DNA of 64,000 bases from positions 2,852,001 to 2,916,000 of the forward strand of contig OX597821.1 of NCBI GenBank assembly GCA_951406725.2, in the 5' to 3' direction. The notes under the pieces are model-generated. The model was not told the origin of the DNA and did not search any database. It saw nothing but the letters and a program-made list of their open reading frames with translations. This document shows, in pieces, positions 2,961-63,999 of the stretch; position 1 is the first letter of the stretch, and each line of letters starts with the position of its first letter. Made by a program: the position numbers and the translations under genes. This DNA comes from Octopus vulgaris (Eukaryota).

Positions 2961-3269
2961 AAAAAATTTAATGATATTTTTCAATGTAAATTTTTATGCG
3001 TAATTTTTCTTGTCAAATGTTCTGAATTTCTCGAAAATGTGCCAACAGATATTTAGATGTACCTGTCATGTCTAAGGATTCAGCTGGTATCTCTACTCTA
3101 TTTTCATTTACTGTTGTCAGGTTATTAAAAATAGGTAGTAAGGTATTTTTAATACTGAGTAAATTAATGATATCTGCCAGAATTTAAGATATCTGAGGTA
3201 AGGTATTTGAGGACACAAATTTTTTGTGTCATTGCTGCAATTTTGCTAACACTGTATAATCTTTGTTTC

Positions 3270-5263: not shown

Positions 5264-5264
<1 letters not shown>

Positions 5265-5495
5265 TTTATTTAAAGCAGCAGAAAATTCAACAAAATCTGT
5301 TACTCTGAGTTTCTCGTTGCCGTTCATCAGACAGTTTTTCCAACAAAAACTGTCTGATGAACGGCAACGAGAAACTCAGAGTAACAGATTTTGTTCAATT
5401 TTCTGCTGCTTTAAATAAAGCATATTACTCTACCACTGGTATTTGAGTACTCTTTTTTTTCCACCTTGTTTCACAGTTATGTGTTTACTCCGGTA
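5264..5495 (+). mobile_element. Fold-back PLE-derived mini-element in (TA)n
   Basis: 76-bp inverted arms 5264-5339 / 5345-5420 (1 mismatch) plus about 73-nt tail, TA repeats both sides, HHR in each arm. Confidence 0.8.
5350..5387 (+). ncRNA. Minimal type-I hammerhead ribozyme motif (mirror copy on minus strand 5297-5334)
   Basis: ctgt-CTGATGA-aCGgcaaCGa-GAAA-ctcagag-TA-acag: stem I ctgt/acag, GNRA-capped stem II, short stem III, GUA triplet. Confidence 0.8.
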
Positions 5496-5501
5496 TATAT
5501 T

Positions 5502-5565
<64 letters not shown>

Positions 5566-5727
5566 TGTGTGTGTGTGTAAAATGCCGATTTTCTTCCAAA
5601 ATTAGCCAAAAGTTATTATATCATTATTAACAAATTCAGGGTAACATAAAAACTTGAAGAAAAGTTCTTTGCTACAAGTAGTATGGCGAGAAGAAAGAAA
5701 TAGTCAATAGACTATATATTATTCATA

Positions 5728-5815
5728 TAAAAATACAGTGTACATTAGAACACATAAGAGATGGTCATAAGAGGACATCTGACCCGCTAGAAGAGTAGTT
5801 AAACGCCAAACCACT
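5728..5815 (+). repeat. Old dispersed repeat; inverted copy at about 6947-7040
   Basis: gtgtacatt..aacacataagag...cgctagaagag...ccaaaccacta shared in opposite orientation. Confidence 0.55.
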
Positions 5816-5857
5816 ATTTGGGGTTATATATAGATATATATATATATATATATATAG

Positions 5858-5889
<32 letters not shown>

Positions 5890-6114
5890 AAATGATCCAT
5901 TATGCCAGGGTGCAAAATTGTTAAACACTTAATGAAGATTAACTTGGAGGGTAGTTTGTCTTTAGTAAAAATCCATAACTTTACTAGCAAAAAAATTCAG
6001 AATGGCGATGATATATAACTTTATATAGCTCCCACGCGTTTGTAGCCCTATATATTTTATGAATACATCTTGATCTTGTAGTCTTCGTGGCAGGCATCGT
6101 AAATGTGCATTTAT

Positions 6115-6245
6115 ATTATAGTGTTCCTCTGGAATTCATTTTATCAGCCCTCGAAGTTTGAAAGGTAAATTCGACTTCGGCGGAATTTGAACTCAGGAAG
6201 TAATTATAATCGAAATACCGCAAAGCCTTAAGTCCGACGTAGTAC
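6115..6245 (-). mobile_element. SINE family B, degenerate
   Basis: gaaaggtaaattcgacttcggcggaatttgaactcag, reverse complement of the family core. Confidence 0.7.
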
Positions 6246-6280
6246 TCATTCTTTATTCTTTCATATATTAGATATTCTTT

Positions 6281-6475
6281 AAGGCAGCGAGCTGGTAGAA
6301 ACATTTGCACGCCGGGCGAAATACTTAGCTGTATTTCGTCAGTCTTTACGTTCTGAGTTCAAATACCTCCAAGGTCAACTTTGCCTTTCATCCATTCAGC
6401 GGTCGATGAATTAAGTACCGGCCGCGGCCCCCTCGCCGAAATTTCAGGTTTTGTGCGTAGAGTATAAAAGATTAT
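6281..6475 (+). mobile_element. tRNA-derived SINE family B
   Basis: aaggcagcgagctggtagaa (A box) ... gttctgagttcaaat (B box) ... ctttgcctttcatcc...gtcgatgaattaagtacc. Confidence 0.85.
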
Positions 6476-6514
6476 ATATTCTTTGATATATATATATATA
6501 TATATGTATATATA

Positions 6515-6710
6515 ATTCAGTCTGCTTGACCGCTAAAATCGACAACTTTTTTCATTCACTCTCTGTTTATTTTCTCTTATTTCTTTCTGTTGAAGAGCAT
6601 AGGCTGGAAGCGTAAAATACTTATTCACTTTTCTCGAGCGTCAAACTAATACACTTTTTTGTTGCTCATACACCTGTCTTCGTCTTTTCTGTTTTTATAA
6701 ATTTCAACTA
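6515..6710 (+). mobile_element. PLE pLTR-like fragment with degenerate HHR (6582-6619)
   Basis: tcttt-CTGTTGA-a-gagcataggctg-GAAG-cg-TA-aaata; same family as 51695 and 53252; TA flanks. Confidence 0.6.
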
Positions 6711-7039
6711 TATATAACTATACATATTTCGCTTGCCCTTGCGCGGTGGATTTGAAAAATTATAATACATAAGCAGTGGACACATGCTGCATTGCCTCAT
6801 AACTATATGTTTAATATAGGCGTATCTGTTGATGAAGACTTCACCAAGCAAATTATTTTATTTGCTAATATAAAGTCAGAAACCATGGTCCAGGAGATAG
6901 ATGGTAAATGTTTTTAATTTTCGTTCTCTTCGAAATTTATCCCTAATAGTGGTTTGGATTTTGGCTTTTCGGTCTCTTCTAGCGTGCTAAGTATCCTATC
7001 ATGGATACCTCTTATGTGTTTAAATGTACACGGTATTTA

Positions 7040-7075
<36 letters not shown>

Positions 7076-7077
7076 GC

Positions 7078-7230
7078 AGCTGCAGCGTGGAAGATGTTTG
7101 TAACCAATTTAAGAACACACAAAAAAACCGTTACATTCATTTCAACGTCTAAATTTAATTTGTGTCAAAATATTTTCTTTGCTTTGAAACCGTGACCTGT
7201 TCGCTGACACAACTTCGTGCTGCATCTGAG
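7078..7230 (-). mobile_element. PLE pLTR-like fragment with HHR-like fold (7161-7211)
   Basis: Homologous to 48185-48350; follows (TA)n. Confidence 0.6.
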
Positions 7231-7742
7231 AAAGTAACAGCTACTTCAAGATATATATGTATTTATGTATGTATATAAACAGATCAAGTCACTTGTTATG
7301 CAAGTATATCTCCGCAATTCTGATAGCTTGAGCCAGGTTACTAAAACTCTGAGGGCAGCCGTTACTTGTTGCTTGAGGAAAATAATGCCGAAGCAGCATC
7401 ATCTCATGAAATACTGCATCTCACTGAAGGTTTATCCGAAAAAGGATTCACAAAACAGTAGAAACACCAACCCTAAAAACATGACAAGCATAGAGACTAA
7501 GACATATTTTGATGACGAACCTGAAATATAAACTATATGTACAAATTGCCACTAAAAAAGGGGGAAACGAGAAGCCAACCTAAAGGGAAGAACTTACTTA
7601 ATATTCGGGAAATGAAACAATTAAAAGGCCTACTCCGACGTTAATGTAACTCTATGGAACAGGAGCGTTCAACTCGTTGAAGAGAAACGTGGACGTTACA
7701 ACTACCATATATTTATAACTACCCATATATTTATAAAACTTA

Positions 7743-7930
7743 AGGTAGCGAGCTGGCAAGAACATTGCCATGCCGGGTGAAATCCTTAGCGGCATTTCGT
7801 AAGTCTTCACCTGCTGAGTTTAAATTCCACCGAGATCACCTTTGCTATGCATTCTTTCGGTATTCATAAAATAATCCCCAATTGAGTCCTGAAGTCGGAG
7901 TAATTCACTAATCTCCTCTCTTGTGTCAAA
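7743..7930 (+). mobile_element. SINE family B
   Basis: aaggtagcgagctggcaagaa...ctgagtttaaattccaccgag. Confidence 0.75.
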
Positions 7931-8114
7931 CTTTGAAGTCAATATATATACGTACACACGTACATACATACACATACACACACACACACACATACACACA
8001 CACACATGTATTAAAATTTATATTCGGTATTCCACCAATTAATAAAACTGGCAGTGATTGTGAATGTCATTTTAATGTAGTGTTGTCGTGCTATCAGAAT
8101 GAGTTTTTGTTAAT

Positions 8115-8300
8115 AAGGTAGCGAGCTGTCAGAATCGGTAGCATACCGGTCAAAATGCCGACCGGCTATGCCAGCGGGGTAGACTTTGTTTCACCCTCAG
8201 AGTCGATGAGATAAGTACCAGTTGAGCACAGATGTCGATGAATCGACATCGCCCCTCATACGAAATTGCTGGCCTGATGCTAAAATTTGTGACTAATATA
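8115..8300 (+). mobile_element. SINE family B, internally deleted
   Basis: aaggtagcgagctgtcagaatcg...gtcgatgagataagtaccagttgagcac. Confidence 0.7.
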
Positions 8301-20612: not shown

Positions 20613-21221
20613 TTGTGTGTGCGATTGGTCCCTGCTTTTGGATAATAAACAGTATATATACTTTTTATAGTAAATGAAATTCGGACACTAGCTGACCAGT
20701 TATCAATATATTGGTCTTTCAACCAAAGCTATATCAAATATAGAGCATATTATCTCTTTATACAGCTATCGTATCCCAATTTCACTTCATATCAATTAAA
20801 ATAGTATCGCTTCTGAAGGCATGTGTATAATATTATAATATATATATATATATACAGACACATATATATTTATACACAATCAAACACACACATGCATACA
20901 CTCACACACACATACACGCGTGCGCCTATATGTGTTCTAGTCTTTATAGCATTAAGTGATGTGCTTGAACAATAACTATACCTAGAATGACTCGCTCCAC
21001 GTTTCTACCGAAAGTTTATTAAATTCCTGAGCCGTAAAATGTATGTATGTACGTACGTTGTATGTATGCATGTATGTTTGTATGTATTTGTCTATCTATC
21101 TCTCTGTATGCCTGTCTAAATTTCCATATACACATATTAATAAGTAAACTCATACATACATATTTCCTTTTCCATATATATACATACCTACACACATATA
21201 TACATACATGCATACGTACAT

Positions 21222-21285
<64 letters not shown>

Positions 21286-21290
<5 letters not shown>

Positions 21291-22910
21291 TTAGAGATAA
21301 AACCACTATTAGGCAAATCAAACAGTGAAAACCATCAATCAAAAAAACATAGAAATAAAACTAATTAATATAATTATACAAAATATATAAAATATAAAAT
21401 TCAAAATTTAAATTAATTAAATTTAAAGTTAATTATTTTTTTAAAATTATTAATATATATATATATATTATTTTTACTCAGCCAAAGAGATATAAAGATC
21501 GTTAACAGTAATACGAGTTTTTTTTAAAGTTAGGTTTCATGTATATACATGTATTGATAGCATAAATTTTAGTCTTTAATAACTATATTAGATGATAGTT
21601 ATTTTAAATATATTATAATTGTTATTATAACTTATATATTGCTTTTTTAATTGATAATTGGTAGATGTATTTCTTCCATTGATAAATATATTCGTAGTAT
21701 TTATTGGATACTATATAATTAGGGATTGATTATTTCATTAAGTATTTTACGATTTCATTTTAGTTCTTAACTATACGGTTTTTGTAAGTTATTAATTAGC
21801 CAACGAGATATATGGATCGTTAGTTAGCTATAGTGTTCTTTTAAGTTTGTTTGTTTTTTTTACAATTTGCTTTTTCATCTTAAATCTTTTAATATATTTA
21901 TAAGTAATAATGAATAATTAATTTATTAGGTCTTTATTATACGTGCATGTATATTTATTGATATAGATAATTTTAAATCTTAATTCTCGTAGTTATATAC
22001 ATTTATTTATATTCATTGATAAATTAGTTATTATTCAAATATTATATACTTATTTGACTTGAAATTAAATTTAATAATATGAATAGTGATTTTTTGTTAA
22101 ATATTTAGGTAATTAGATATTGACTATAACTGAGATTAGATTATTTGTGCGTTTATTATGTTTTTTAAAGCCATATTATATCTCAATAGACAAATACATG
22201 TTCTATATATTCTTACCTTAAAAATTAATACTTAAATATTAATATTTAACAGTGTAATCGATTATATGGCATAATCATAATCGTTAAAGATTCTAGTTTG
22301 ATAATAGAGTTTGTTATAAGAAAAATTATTATTTTATTTATTTCTTTAAAAATATTGTTTAAATATATTTGATTATTTATTTAAGAATTATTATTAACCT
22401 GAAGATTGACTATAACTATAATTCGAATTATTACTTGAATTTAAATTATTGTTATTCGAATTAGGTTACGGGCATGAAACGATCGTAGTGCTTTTACTTT
22501 TTTTCTTATATTAAACTTTTTAATACTTTTTGATAGTTATATATATTTAATTTAAAATAAAGAAATAAAGAAATATATAATTAAATAAATAAAAGATAAA
22601 AATAAAAATAATGATAAAAATAAAAATTATATATATATATATAAATTTGTAAGTATAAATTAATAATTAAAAGTAATTTTTTTGAAATTTTAAATTTAAA
22701 TTTGGAATTTAATATTTTATATATTTTGTATATTATATTAATTAATTTTATTTCTATGTTTTGATTTATGTTTTTCACTGTTTGATTTGCCTAATAGTGG
22801 TTTTATTTCTAATTTAATATATATAATTATACTGTAAAATTAGATTTAATCCTAAATCTAATTTTTCCCTGTAAGTTTGGATTTACTTCGTAATATTATT
22901 TATAAATTTA
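21286..22910 (+). mobile_element. 1.6-kb very AT-rich fold-back PLE-derived element with HHR at 22396-22490
   Basis: Inverted arms about 21286-21425 / 22690-22817, about 90-nt tail, (TA)n both sides; CTGAAGA...GAAACGATCGTA; short relative at 59346-59632. Confidence 0.75.
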
Positions 22911-24244
22911 TATATATATATATGTATTTTTTCATTCGTAGACACACACACTGAACACCTACATAGATATACACATTTATAAGTTATTTTATGTTTAATG
23001 ATTATATATTTCACCTCGTTAGTTTGTGAACGTGGTGATTAGCGTTGAATATTTCATCTGAAGTAGGAGAAAACGGTTTTTGTTTCACTGTGATGGTTTC
23101 CCCATTAAACTCTGGAAACAATGTAACCTTCGTCTGCAGAATTAACCAGCAATAAGATAACATTCGGACGAGTGTGGGATGTATTTGTCATTTATTTGTG
23201 TGGCGTTGAAAGAAATAAGAGATGAATACTGACCTTGTGAATGATTGCCGTTTGAAAAATGATTAATTACGTGTTTTCTTGCGTGTGAATGTGTTTGTGT
23301 GTTTTATTACTTTTTTCATGCTTAAGATGATAAAGTTAGCAACACTGATAGCATTGACAGTCCTTATTTATATCCATAGGAGAATGATCTCGTAGGCTAC
23401 AGACCAATTAAAAGTAAGGTTAGTGTTTCAAGTGTGTAAAAATCAATAATACAAACAATGTGTTGCTATATAACTACCATTCACCCAATAATTAGTAGTC
23501 ACCAAAAACTGATTCATTGTTAAGATATCTGTGAATCCGCTATAAATCAGAAACAATGGATAATACAATTATTATATATTTTTTTCTCTCTGTCTCTCTC
23601 TGAACTGAAAATGTAATTATTTCGAAATAAAACAGAATTACTATAAGAACTTGTATTAAAATGACTTCAAATATTTAAAATAAATCATTGAATGAAATGA
23701 ACAAAATAAAATTTCAGAATAAATAATTCTACGTGCAAATATCTATAAAATCCTTAGATATTTTTTTCTTTTCTATATAATAACAAACACAATTTTCAAA
23801 AGTTTTTCAATCATTTCATAAAATTTGGAAGCACAATGTATTATATATTTATAATTATATATACAATCAATTGTGAGTATTTCCAATAAATCTACCCGTG
23901 AGACGATAGTGATTCTCATATACATGAAGAAGACCATTTTTTCATAAAAATGATATTCTACAACTTCTCTGACAATGACTCCTTCATTAATATATATTCC
24001 TCCCATGTGAAAACGAATTTATTTTAAACTATGTGAAATGGGTAATAAAATAATTAAAGAAAGCATGCCAAATGATATAGTTCCAGGATAGTTTTCCATT
24101 GACTCTTTTAGCAATATTCCTGTTCTCTGATTAGTTAGAGATAGTTGCATTACTCGTCGCGAACTAGAATTAATAGAATTGGAGCGCATAAAGGTGTTCA
24201 ATATGTTAATATAGGTTTCAAATTTTGTCTCAAAACAGCAGTTT

Positions 24245-50146: not shown

Positions 50147-50584
50147 AGTTCAGCAAAAATTTAGATTCAGATGAATATGGTACTTAATTTAGATGCACCA
50201 GCAAAATGTGTATGATGTTATCTATAAAAATACGTGGGGTGATTATAATCAAAATAAGCAACAAGAATGACTCTGGTAATTTGGTACAATCGTTTCGTTC
50301 TACATCATTTTGTTAAATGTTGTAAGTATTACAACAGATTTAAGAAGGACTTCACTACCTCATATGTTCTTAAAATTTAAATCCACATCTTTGTCTGTAT
50401 ATCTACCTTCTCTATAATGTTGCCACTTGATTTGAAAATTTTTGTATTAATGAAAAACCTCTATAATTGGCTGATGAGTACTCAGCTTCTTAAATCTGTT
50501 GTAATACTTACAACATTTAACAAAATGATGTAGTACGAAACGATTGTACCAAATTACCAGAGTCATTCTTGTTGCTTATTTTGA

Positions 50585-50586
<2 letters not shown>
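50147..50586. mobile_element. Fold-back PLE-derived mini-element in (TA)n
   Basis: About 100-bp inverted arms 50249-50348 / 50486-50585, about 100-nt tail on the left, TA flanks. Confidence 0.8.
50467..50552 (+). ncRNA. Type-I hammerhead ribozyme motif with extended stem II
   Basis: ttgg-CTGATGA-gtact...agtac-GAAA-cgattg-TA-ccaa; internal hairpin tgttgtaa/ttacaaca. Confidence 0.82.
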
Positions 50587-50637
<51 letters not shown>

Positions 50638-59345: not shown

Positions 59346-59629
59346 TTAAATTTGTGATAAAACCACTATTAGGCAAATCAAACAATGAAAAACATAAGCC
59401 AATACATAAAATTAATTAATTTATATTATTTTAAATATATATCAAAAGTATTAAAAGTTTAAATTAATTAATTTTATGTATTGGCTTATGTCTTTCATTG
59501 CTTGATTTGCCTAATAGTGGTTTTATCTCTAATTTAATATAATATAATATAATATATTTATACTATAAAATTGGATTTAATCTTAAATCTGATTTTTCCC
59601 TGTAAGTTTGGATTTATTCCCTAATATTT

Positions 59630-59632
<3 letters not shown>
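59346..59632 (+). mobile_element. Short fold-back member of the 21286 family
   Basis: Arms 59346-59423 / 59460-59537 and the same tail (atttttccctgtaagtttggattta) as 22818-22908, then (TA)n. Confidence 0.85.
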
Positions 59633-62409: not shown

Positions 62410-63110
62410 CTAATTGATAAACTTAACCTTATGATTCTCAGCATCAATATTATTATTGATAATGTTAACATCAATCTCACTAATTATTCCTATATTCAAC
62501 GGTGGTCTATATTTAACATTATTAATATTATTCAAATCGTTAGAGCTACTACTACTAATACCAGTATCATCAACCATGTTACTATTCGTCGTTACAGAAA
62601 TACCACTATTGTTACCTCCATTAGGGCTACCCACACTCGCACTATCAAAATTACTAAATCTCAAGCGGTAGTGGGGCACATTACTGCTAACCAAGTTCAT
62701 CTTTCTATCAAAATAGAAATGGTCTAATTTTCTATTATTAAAAGAGGATATTATGGTGGCCAAGTTATGAGTAAGGCCGTATCCTATTCTAATAGTTTTA
62801 TTATTAATTATGTTACAATATTTATTCTTTCCCTTCCCAAAATGCTTGTACAATAAACTATGGATAATTCCAACTATGTCAGTTTTAATTTGCATAGCAT
62901 ATGGAATTATTAGCCATAGTGCATCATTACCACTATATAGGTTACCTATTATATTTCTATTATTAACAAATATCCTATTCCCCTTATTTGCCCTACACTT
63001 TCTATGATTTATATTACCAAGATTATGACTAAAATCCTTGTCATAATTATTATTGTTACTATGGTGTAAATAAGTTTTTCTATTTCCGTAAATATTATTA
63101 ATATTATTAA

Positions 63111-63176
<66 letters not shown>

Positions 63177-63270
63177 CATTATTATTATTATCATTATTAT
63201 TATTATCATTATTATTATTATCATTCTTCTTCTTCTTCTTCTTCTTCTTCTTCTTCTTCTTCTTCTTCTT

Positions 63271-63301
<31 letters not shown>

Positions 63302-63999
63302 TTCTTCTTCTTCTTCTTATTATTATTATTGTTATTAATATTGATGTTATGTGCAAAGTCATTTAATATAAGATCATTAGCTCTATTTATACCGGTACTA
63401 GTATTATTACCATTCACAATATTATATTCCTTAATGTCCCTGACCCTAGAGTTGCCGTTAGCCCCACCCAACCCATTTATATTTGTAGTAGTTGATCTAC
63501 TTCTATCACTAAGGTTGTTACTAGGTATATACTTAATTTTACCAGTATAACCTGTCTTATGTAATGCAGAGTCGTATTTTTCACTATGTCTATTAAATAT
63601 ATCTACGTTCGAGGATAGATAAGAGATTCTTTTACTAATGCTAAGCAAAAGTGACCTTTTTACTTGAGTGGGGTGATTGCTAGAGTAGTTTATATAGACT
63701 GAATTAGAATTAGGTTTAACATAAGGTTCATGTATTCCATTAGTGAGATTGCAATTAACATCTAAATAATTGACAGAGTAATTTTCATTTTCAATAATTA
63801 TTGATAAGCCAAAACTCTTAAAAAATTTGCGCAGTCGTTTTTTCAGTATTTCTAGTTTTCTAATTGATGTATTCTTAACTAAAAACAAAGCGTCGTCTCT
63901 ATATAGGCCGCCCTTCAATTCAGGGAATTCGCTACTTAAATTATCTAGTAAATACATCCCTACTAAATCAGTCGCTTCCGCTGAATCCGGCGATCCCAT
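62410..63999 (-). CDS. Penelope-like element reverse transcriptase ORF (partial; continues past the window edge)
   Basis: MGSPDSAE..DLVG, GLYRDDAL, NYLDV, YVKPN...YINYSSNHP, YDSAL..TGY, IIPY, TIRIGY motifs. Confidence 0.92.

What the first reader, a model, noticed from the sequence alone, without database searches (positions are those of the whole stretch)
21286..22910. Long and short members of one fold-back family invert at the same nucleotide
This 1.6-kb element and the 0.29-kb element at 59346-59632 both begin their inverted arm at ttaaatt(a/t)g(a/t)gataaaaccac. This is the point where the direct arm runs into an internal TA-rich run before a 90-nt tail. The 5264 and 50147 elements also invert next to an internal ATAT/TATA 70-100 nt from the 3' end. 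Inference: the second (TA)n target strand primes on this internal TA run (twin-priming-like), producing programmed fold-backs.
Basis: inference. Interest (0 to 1): 0.7.

Follow-up and report, generated by a model that had tools for sequence, protein, structure and literature searches.

The report
Double-primed Penelope retrotransposon fold-backs
These mirror-image insertions are truncated ends of a Penelope-like jumping gene in a layout already described, and because one arm nearly always carries a 90-base tail that the other lacks, each was likely written by two separate copying starts on the element's RNA, one from each cut DNA strand.

Summary
Observation confirmed. The elements at 21286-22910 and 59346-59632 are 5'-truncated ends of a Hydra-clade Penelope-like retrotransposon. 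Full copies elsewhere in the genome carry an RT plus GIY-YIG ORF, a hammerhead and direct pLTRs. Arms end at two fixed sites: A, the internal TA run, and B, about 90 nt further on.

Fold-backs pair A with B almost without exception: 44 of 48 old pairs, 17 of 17 scorable young pairs, no A/A pair in this family. Inner junctions vary. Either arm can be the longer one, which a single snap-back cannot build. In young relatives both arms lack the same 1.8-kb intron and stop at one 5' limit, so the template was likely spliced sense RNA.

The inverted-pLTR-plus-tail layout is published, and so are two RT start sites flanking the tail in vitro. I found no paper stating the A/B pairing rule. This scan noted the same mechanism earlier, in this genome and others.

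However, A is also used alone, the arms overlap, and one family drops a template base at A, so pure annealing is not enough.

The parts
21229..21285 (.). (TA)n target tract, left
   Evidence: sequence
21286..21476 (-). inverted, tail-less arm (ends at start site A); copy of 22621-22818
   Evidence: 85% identity
21473..21476 (.). inner junction, 4-nt overlap (TTTA) between the two arms
   Evidence: L041
21473..22818 (+). direct arm: unspliced pLTR/3' UTR of the Penelope-like element, starting about 180 nt inside the clustered 5' limit of its subfamily
22396..22491 (+). hammerhead core (CUGAAGA at 22399, long stem II, GAAAC-GAUC-GUA at 22476-22487); stem I weak in this old subfamily, intact in young relatives
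   Evidence: read by eye; z -2.3 fold of the region
22814..22825 (+). start site A: internal TA run, pLTR end
22819..22909 (+). tail: in full-length copies this sequence follows the 5' pLTR and leads towards the ORF start; contains a 13-bp hairpin; ends at start site B, a (TAT)n/TA run
22909..22923 (.). (TA)n target tract, right
59346..59462 (-). short family member: inverted tail-less arm, the longer arm of the two (reaches about -121 versus -61 to -78 of reference copies)
59459..59632 (+). short family member: direct arm plus tail, followed by (TA)n
5264..5493 (+). unrelated family, same layout: palindrome 5264-5420 with a hammerhead on each strand (5350+, 5334-) and a tail 5421-5493; no ORF-linked copy found
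50147..50589 (-). third family, same layout: tail 50147-50243, short tailed arm to 50347, longer tail-less arm about 50349-50589 with a hammerhead core at about 50467-50552; sister copies adjoin a related RT-GIY-YIG ORF

Best explanation
These are truncated insertions of a Hydra-clade Penelope-like retrotransposon, and each fold-back was likely made when both cut strands of a (TA)n target primed reverse transcription on the element's sense RNA, one at start site A and one at start site B about 90 nt downstream. Shown: the family identity; two end points A and B; their one-to-one pairing in fold-backs; independent arm lengths; short overlaps at the inner junction; intron-less arms with a sharp 5' limit in young relatives. 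Inferred steps: (1) A Pol II promoter in the pLTR makes a capped RNA, spliced or not, that runs through hammerhead, A, tail and B into the ORF. (2) The GIY-YIG domain cuts both strands of (TA)n. (3) One 3' end starts at B and the other at A; the TA-rich sequence helps set the register, but the start zone is fixed by the RNP. (4) The two cDNAs run towards the RNA 5' end for independent distances, the B cDNA usually passing A. (5) Their 3' ends are joined with 0-5 nt of overlap or a few extra bases. If only one start is used, a solo A-ended or B-ended copy results. That one RNA molecule serves both arms is the least certain step (about 0.6).
For: Identity: L111 holds pLTR, tail, ORF and a second pLTR ending at A. 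Relatives with the same pLTR end and tail have open frames of 820-860 aa. The best fold match is TERT. Pairing: 44 A/B, 2 B/B, 2 A/mid-tail and 0 A/A of 48 de-duplicated old pairs; 31, 1, 2 and 0 of the 34 pairs not selected for the tail. Young pairs: 17 of 17 scorable are A/B, and 1 was cut off by the locus end. Taking 48 of 49 against a 0.5 ceiling gives p about 1e-13. Other families: 13 of 15 pairs (5264) and 9 of 9 pairs (50147) are one tailed plus one tail-less. Independent lengths: the tailed arm is clearly longer in 13 old pairs and the tail-less arm in 5 (the other 30 were not clear-cut in low-complexity DNA). The tail-less arm is also longer at 59346 and in young L296, L327, L328, L343, L351 and L356. 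B arms that stop inside the tail are joined to A arms in L149, L178, L272 and L297. Sense spliced template: a GT-AG intron of 1816-1853 nt in 7 of 10 intact pLTR copies measured is missing from both arms in 8 of 11 short young fold-backs, the other 3 having one arm too short to reach the junction. It is also missing from both arms in 11 of 15 insertions found by exact junction search. None of these extends upstream of one A residue. Shared template: rare variants occur in both arms of L321, L331 and L332. L327's arms are 100% identical over 2471 nt versus at most 98.8% to other copies held. Literature: a purified PLE protein cuts and extends both strands and starts at two internal sites that bound the tail (PMC11167929).
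Against: No biochemical or RNA-level evidence for this family. Arm-to-arm identity did not exceed identity to another copy in 2 of 5 long young pairs (L324, L326). Two RNAs from one source locus, or conversion between arms after insertion, would also give matching arms. 2 B/B pairs exist, and one compound locus of the 5264 family holds a tail/tail and a tail-less/tail-less pair. In vitro the anole protein used both start sites on either strand, at a site not homologous to the target, so pairing was not shown there. Asymmetric deletion at a palindrome centre could make a tail-less arm look longer. Only 1 of 44 A/B pairs shows a resolvable target-site duplication. The spliced evidence comes from a sister subfamily about 80% identical at the end, not from the 21286 subfamily, whose copies held are unspliced.
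Confidence: 0.72

Rival explanations
1. cDNA snap-back: one cDNA primed at B folds back on itself, copies itself as far as A and is captured there by the second target strand through TA microhomology.
For: Explains the A/B pairing and identical arms. Near-perfect palindromes with centres at the RNA 5' end exist (L304, L314). The tailed arm is the longer one in most clear cases (13 vs 5).
Against: It cannot put sequence in the tail-less arm that the tailed arm lacks, yet this is seen in old copies (L053, L112, L125, L139, L145, 59346) and in near-identical young copies (L296, L327, L328, L343, L351, L356). Tailed arms that stop inside the tail also occur. A-primed cDNAs are common, and their snap-back would give A/A pairs, which are absent.
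Confidence: 0.12
2. Dual priming on two RNA molecules held by an asymmetric protein dimer, one subunit set at A and one at B.
For: Avoids strand displacement on one RNA. A dimer is predicted for the anole protein. L324 and L326 arms are no closer to each other than to other copies.
Against: Needs a built-in asymmetry to forbid A/A. Both arms are spliced together in every short case that can be scored, and rare variants are shared, although same-locus RNAs could do this.
Confidence: 0.1
3. Self-priming on an antisense template and/or endonuclease resolution of a DNA intermediate, cut at A on one strand and B on the other (published hypotheses, PMC3846280 and PMC8557442).
For: A and B resemble the (TA)n target and could be cut sites. 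The 5264-family A junction is precise and drops a template base.
Against: Both arms carry a sense-strand splice junction and stop at a sharp 5' limit, which an antisense template does not predict. In vitro the tail ends are RT start sites.
Confidence: 0.04
4. Non-autonomous DNA transposon (MITE or foldback type) with terminal inverted repeats and a TA target.
For: Inverted ends, TA context, high copy number.
Against: The ends are asymmetric (0 A/A of 48). Inner lengths run from about 110 bp to 9 kb. Solo 5'-truncated copies are common. The sequence is continuous with an RT-GIY-YIG ORF, and introns are lost.
Confidence: 0.01

Closest known systems
Hydra clade of C-terminal-endonuclease Penelope-like elements, incl. 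Hydra-1_Obim (Craig et al. 2021, PMC8557442; passages, section 11 and supplement rows read)
   Same: RWK-like, DKT, CxCX5C, CxxC and CxH motifs; hammerhead; (TA)n insertion; partial tandems and inverted 5'-truncated copies.
   Different: Unit about 6.3 kb with a 2.5-3.6 kb non-coding pLTR region (the clade is described as generally <3 kb); tail 72-100 nt versus 30-40 bp; N-rich insert; 1.8-kb pLTR intron. Not aligned to the published consensus.
Inverted pLTR with optional tail (Pen2a_Av and others, Arkhipova et al. 2013, PMC3846280; passages read)
   Same: Head-to-head arms, tail on one arm, tail continuous with the ORF start, N-rich insert.
   Different: That paper favours self-priming on an antisense template; here both arms come from spliced sense RNA in young copies.
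Poseidon PAc in vitro (Frangieh et al. 2024, PMC11167929; main text read, parts 1-2 of 4)
   Same: Two internal RT start sites bounding the tail; both strands cut and extended; hammerhead cleavage not needed (arms here run through the intact cleavage site).
   Different: PAc starts in an AC-rich loop unrelated to the target, whereas here both sites are TA-rich. The paper does not discuss inverted copies or pairing of the two sites.
LINE-1 twin priming (recalled, no call)
   Same: Both target strands prime on the RNA, giving an inversion with short overlap at the inner junction.
   Different: L1 arms copy non-overlapping RNA from a variable internal site; here both starts are fixed and the arms mostly copy the same stretch.

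Membership tests
Penelope-like elements (EN+) | single ORF with telomerase-like RT | tested here: met
   838-aa ORF with YRDD; top Foldseek hit TERT, E 1.2e-6, model mean pLDDT 62; Pfam and PDB sequence searches blank
Penelope-like elements (EN+) | C-terminal GIY-YIG endonuclease | tested here: met
   VYKC..YIG..R motif conserved with homologues; assigned by motif reading, no profile hit
Penelope-like elements (EN+) | partial-tandem pLTRs, inverted 5'-truncated copies, optional tail | tested here: met
Penelope-like elements (EN+) | type I hammerhead in pLTR | tested here: met
   full core with three stems in young copies and the 5264 family; stem I weak at 22396; no Rfam hammerhead hit for 21200-23000; cleavage untested
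Penelope-like elements (EN+) | spliceosomal intron near the pLTR promoter | tested here: met
   GT-AG intron precisely absent from short copies; seen in the young subfamily only
Hydra clade | RWK and DKT motifs, CxCX5C linker, CxxC and CxH, no CCHH | tested here: met
   RIKWK, SDKT, CTCRDKSNC, CYLC and CRH in P0010 against the description
Hydra clade | (TA)n insertion preference | tested here: met
   flanks; no genome-wide control computed
Hydra clade | phylogenetic placement with reference Hydra elements | not tested
   reference sequences were not in hand
Neptune clade (first guess) | CX2-5CxxC linker and CCHH motif | tested here: not met
   the linker is CxCX5C and only one cysteine lies in the GIY-YIG core
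TIR DNA transposon / MITE | symmetric terminal inverted repeats defining both ends | tested here: not met
   0 of 48 pairs A/A, 2 of 48 B/B
LINE-1-type twin priming | arms copy non-overlapping RNA segments | tested here: not met
   arms overlap in all scored pairs (which were selected for a shared core); 4 non-overlapping cases seen

The most novel reading that the evidence does not exclude
The inverted pLTR is the primary product of a dedicated two-start mechanism: an asymmetric PLE ribonucleoprotein seats the two cut target strands on two fixed sites of one capped, spliced or unspliced sense RNA and copies the same stretch twice by strand displacement. The tail is then simply the spacer between the two seats, and in (TA)n-targeting lineages both seats have come to mimic the target.
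Probability: 0.5. Interest if true: 0.75.

Novelty: new member of a known kind. Interest (0 to 1): 0.5.

Why it matters
How Penelope-like elements form tandem and inverted ends is named as an open question in PMC8557442, and the steps after initiation are unvalidated in PMC11167929. The near-obligate pairing of the two start sites, the independent arm lengths and the spliced sense junction in both arms give three concrete predictions for the existing in vitro system. They also argue against antisense self-priming. Intact 838-aa copies with young insertions make this family a usable model. The layout itself is known, and the particular insertion at 21286 is an old, decayed copy.

Tried and rejected
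Genome-wide repeat listing was swamped by microsatellites. Rfam found nothing relevant, and there is no ORF inside 21286-22910. Pfam and PDB sequence searches missed the protein. Neptune membership was my first reading and was dropped after the motif comparison. A DIRS-like reading (inverted repeats plus an internal complementary region; recalled) was dropped when the ORF proved to be RT plus GIY-YIG.

The TSD search gave 1 of 44 versus 5 of 1892 cross pairs and is uninformative in (TA)n. An apparent variant confined to tail-less arms in the main family (CAC-type, 4 of 101 vs 0 of 77) is too rare to use. A similar AG variant in 6 tail-less ends of the 50147 family is unexplained. Tail folding is significant only for the main family (z -2.5 and -1.7; -0.3 and +0.6 for the other two), so a shared tail structure is not shown.

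Sequencing-run search: no RNA holder listed. No reads were laid, so expression, RNA ends and a possible second intron starting in the tail remain open.

Rows dropped before counts: of 58 raw old pairs, 3 were cut by locus ends (two were the window element itself) and 7 were duplicates. In one search the 'dup' label also covers loci with no scored arm.

Literature searches for a published statement of paired start sites in inverted PLE copies, or of intron-less genomic copies, found none. Subscription papers and bioRxiv supplements were not visible, and I did not see the PMC11167929 supplement (Fig. S2 on genomic ends), which may bear on this.

Full report
Observation. The 1.6-kb element lies between two (TA)n tracts. 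Its left 190 nt (21286-21476) are an inverted copy of 22621-22818, and the last 90 nt (22819-22909) have no mirror. The element at 59346-59632 has the same two ends. I call the internal TA run A and the TA-rich end of the tail B. The genome (2.8 Gb; an octopus by the names of the closest proteins) holds at least 1238 candidates. In the first 30 loci, 12 of 13 inverted arms begin at A.

Identity. Walking upstream through longer copies reached a GIY-YIG frame and then L111, which reads pLTR, tail, ORF, long non-coding region, pLTR ending at A. So the tail is the sequence that follows the pLTR on the way to the ORF, as described for Penelope elements (PMC3846280, passages). A protein search found many relatives with open frames of 820-860 aa. 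Those fetched share the pLTR end and tail with the window elements at about 80%. The protein's best fold match is TERT. Its motifs fit the Hydra clade and not Neptune; I took the Hydra lead from earlier scan notes and checked it. A minimal hammerhead lies about 120 nt upstream of A in young copies and, with a long stem II and weak stem I, about 330 nt upstream in the window element. The 5264 and 50147 elements are other families with hammerheads. The 50147 family is linked to a related ORF; no ORF-linked copy of the 5264 family was found.

End points. With queries that contain no tail, 38 of 60 arms end at A, 21 at B and 1 within the tail. In the young subfamily 27 of 42 A ends share one exact junction and most others lie within a few bases. 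In the 59346 subfamily the A arm stops after a variable number of AATAT units, which points to register set by short pairing. In the 5264 family, however, 18 of 19 tail-less ends lack the C that 15 of 16 tailed arms have just before ATAT. This points to a start fixed by the element, in line with the non-homologous starts found in vitro (PMC11167929). Both effects likely act.

Pairing. Of 48 de-duplicated old fold-backs, 44 join an A arm to a B arm, 2 are B/B, 2 are A/mid-tail and none is A/A. Among the 34 not selected for the tail the counts are 31, 1, 2 and 0. All 17 scorable young pairs are A/B, as are 13 of 15 and 9 of 9 pairs in the two other families; the two exceptions come from one compound locus. 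Independent choice of site could give at most half mixed pairs, and 48 of 49 has p about 1e-13. The samples are top hits per query, not random draws.

Arm lengths and inner junctions. The tailed arm is clearly longer in 13 old pairs and the tail-less arm in 5, the other 30 being unclear. The tail-less arm is also longer at 59346, at 50147 (read) and in six young copies. Four insertions join an A arm to a B arm that stopped inside the tail. A snap-back of one B-primed cDNA cannot produce these. Inner junctions fall at many positions, with 0-5 nt overlap or a few extra bases (4 nt in the window element).

Template. Intact young copies have a short exon, a GT donor, an intron (1816-1853 nt in 7 of 10 measured) and an AG acceptor just before the hammerhead. 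Short young copies lack exactly this intron: in both arms in 8 of 11 short fold-backs, and in 11 of 15 insertions found by exact junction search. None of these extends upstream of one A in an initiator-like context. An extra G precedes it clearly in two copies, ambiguously in four and not in three, a partial cap-like signature (inference). The old subfamily shows a matching cluster of 5' ends about 1.6 kb upstream of A, and most of its copies have a non-GT base pair at the analogous donor, which would explain why the window element is unspliced (inference). Rare variants are shared by both arms in three young copies. Arm-to-arm identity beats the nearest other copy in 3 of 5 long pairs and ties in 2.

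Mechanism. The simplest account is that both cut strands of the (TA)n target prime on the sense RNA, one at A and one at B, and that the two cDNAs are joined at their 3' ends. Exclusion of A/A is natural if both primers sit on one RNA. An asymmetric dimer on two RNAs from one locus is not excluded. Steps shown and inferred are listed under Best explanation.

Comparison and novelty. The inverted copy with a one-sided tail is standard for endonuclease-bearing PLEs (PMC8557442, passages; PMC3846280). Two RT start sites bounding the tail, with both strands extended, are shown for an anole element (PMC11167929), which does not discuss inverted copies. An intron beside the pLTR promoter and hammerhead is known from Drosophila Penelope (PMC2377424 and PMC4209133, passages). 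Other papers seen: bioRxiv 10.64898/2026.07.22.740005, part 1 of 5; PMC13282606, passages. Six searches found no paper stating the pairing rule. Earlier notes of this scan reached the same mechanism on other DNA, in this and other genomes; they are not independent support. Verdict: a new member of a known kind, with good genomic evidence on an open mechanistic question.

Noticed in passing
window 62743-63999 (-): Fragment of another Penelope-like ORF, 54% identical to P0010 over RT residues 328-490.
   Followed up: no
window 50348-50349: The longer arm of the 50147 element begins with G plus ACTTCAC, resembling the 5' limit (ACTTCAT) of the young sister subfamily; possibly a shared initiator and a copied cap.
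   Followed up: no
young subfamily B ends (L291-L358); old L027, L030, L139: Only about 10 of 43 B ends follow the template's TATTATTTAT; 20 read TATTATTATA and several carry extra TAT units, with long (TAT)n runs in old copies. Possibly slippage or telomerase-like reiteration at initiation.
   Followed up: partly
window 22871-22876 and homologous tails: A donor-like GTAAGT (GTAAAT in young copies) lies inside the tail upstream of the ORF start; a second intron spanning site B is possible but untested.
   Followed up: no
L066 about 3045-3150 (oriented): An A-ended copy runs directly into a U6 snRNA-like sequence at an ATATA overlap (label recalled, not from a call).
   Followed up: no
L008: The only fold-back with a resolvable target-site duplication, about 20 nt, whose end overlaps the TA run at A.
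   Followed up: yes
L032 (oriented 5500-8136): An 882-codon RT frame of another retroelement abuts a family copy at an (ATT)n tract (R4/Dong-like label recalled).
   Followed up: no
L194: Compound locus of the 5264 family with four arms in the order tail/tail then tail-less/tail-less, the only departure from the pairing rule in that family.
   Followed up: no
L273, L279, L324-L328: Young full-length copies often carry an internal tandem duplication of about 1.5-1.75 kb in the non-coding region, including the small exon.
   Followed up: no
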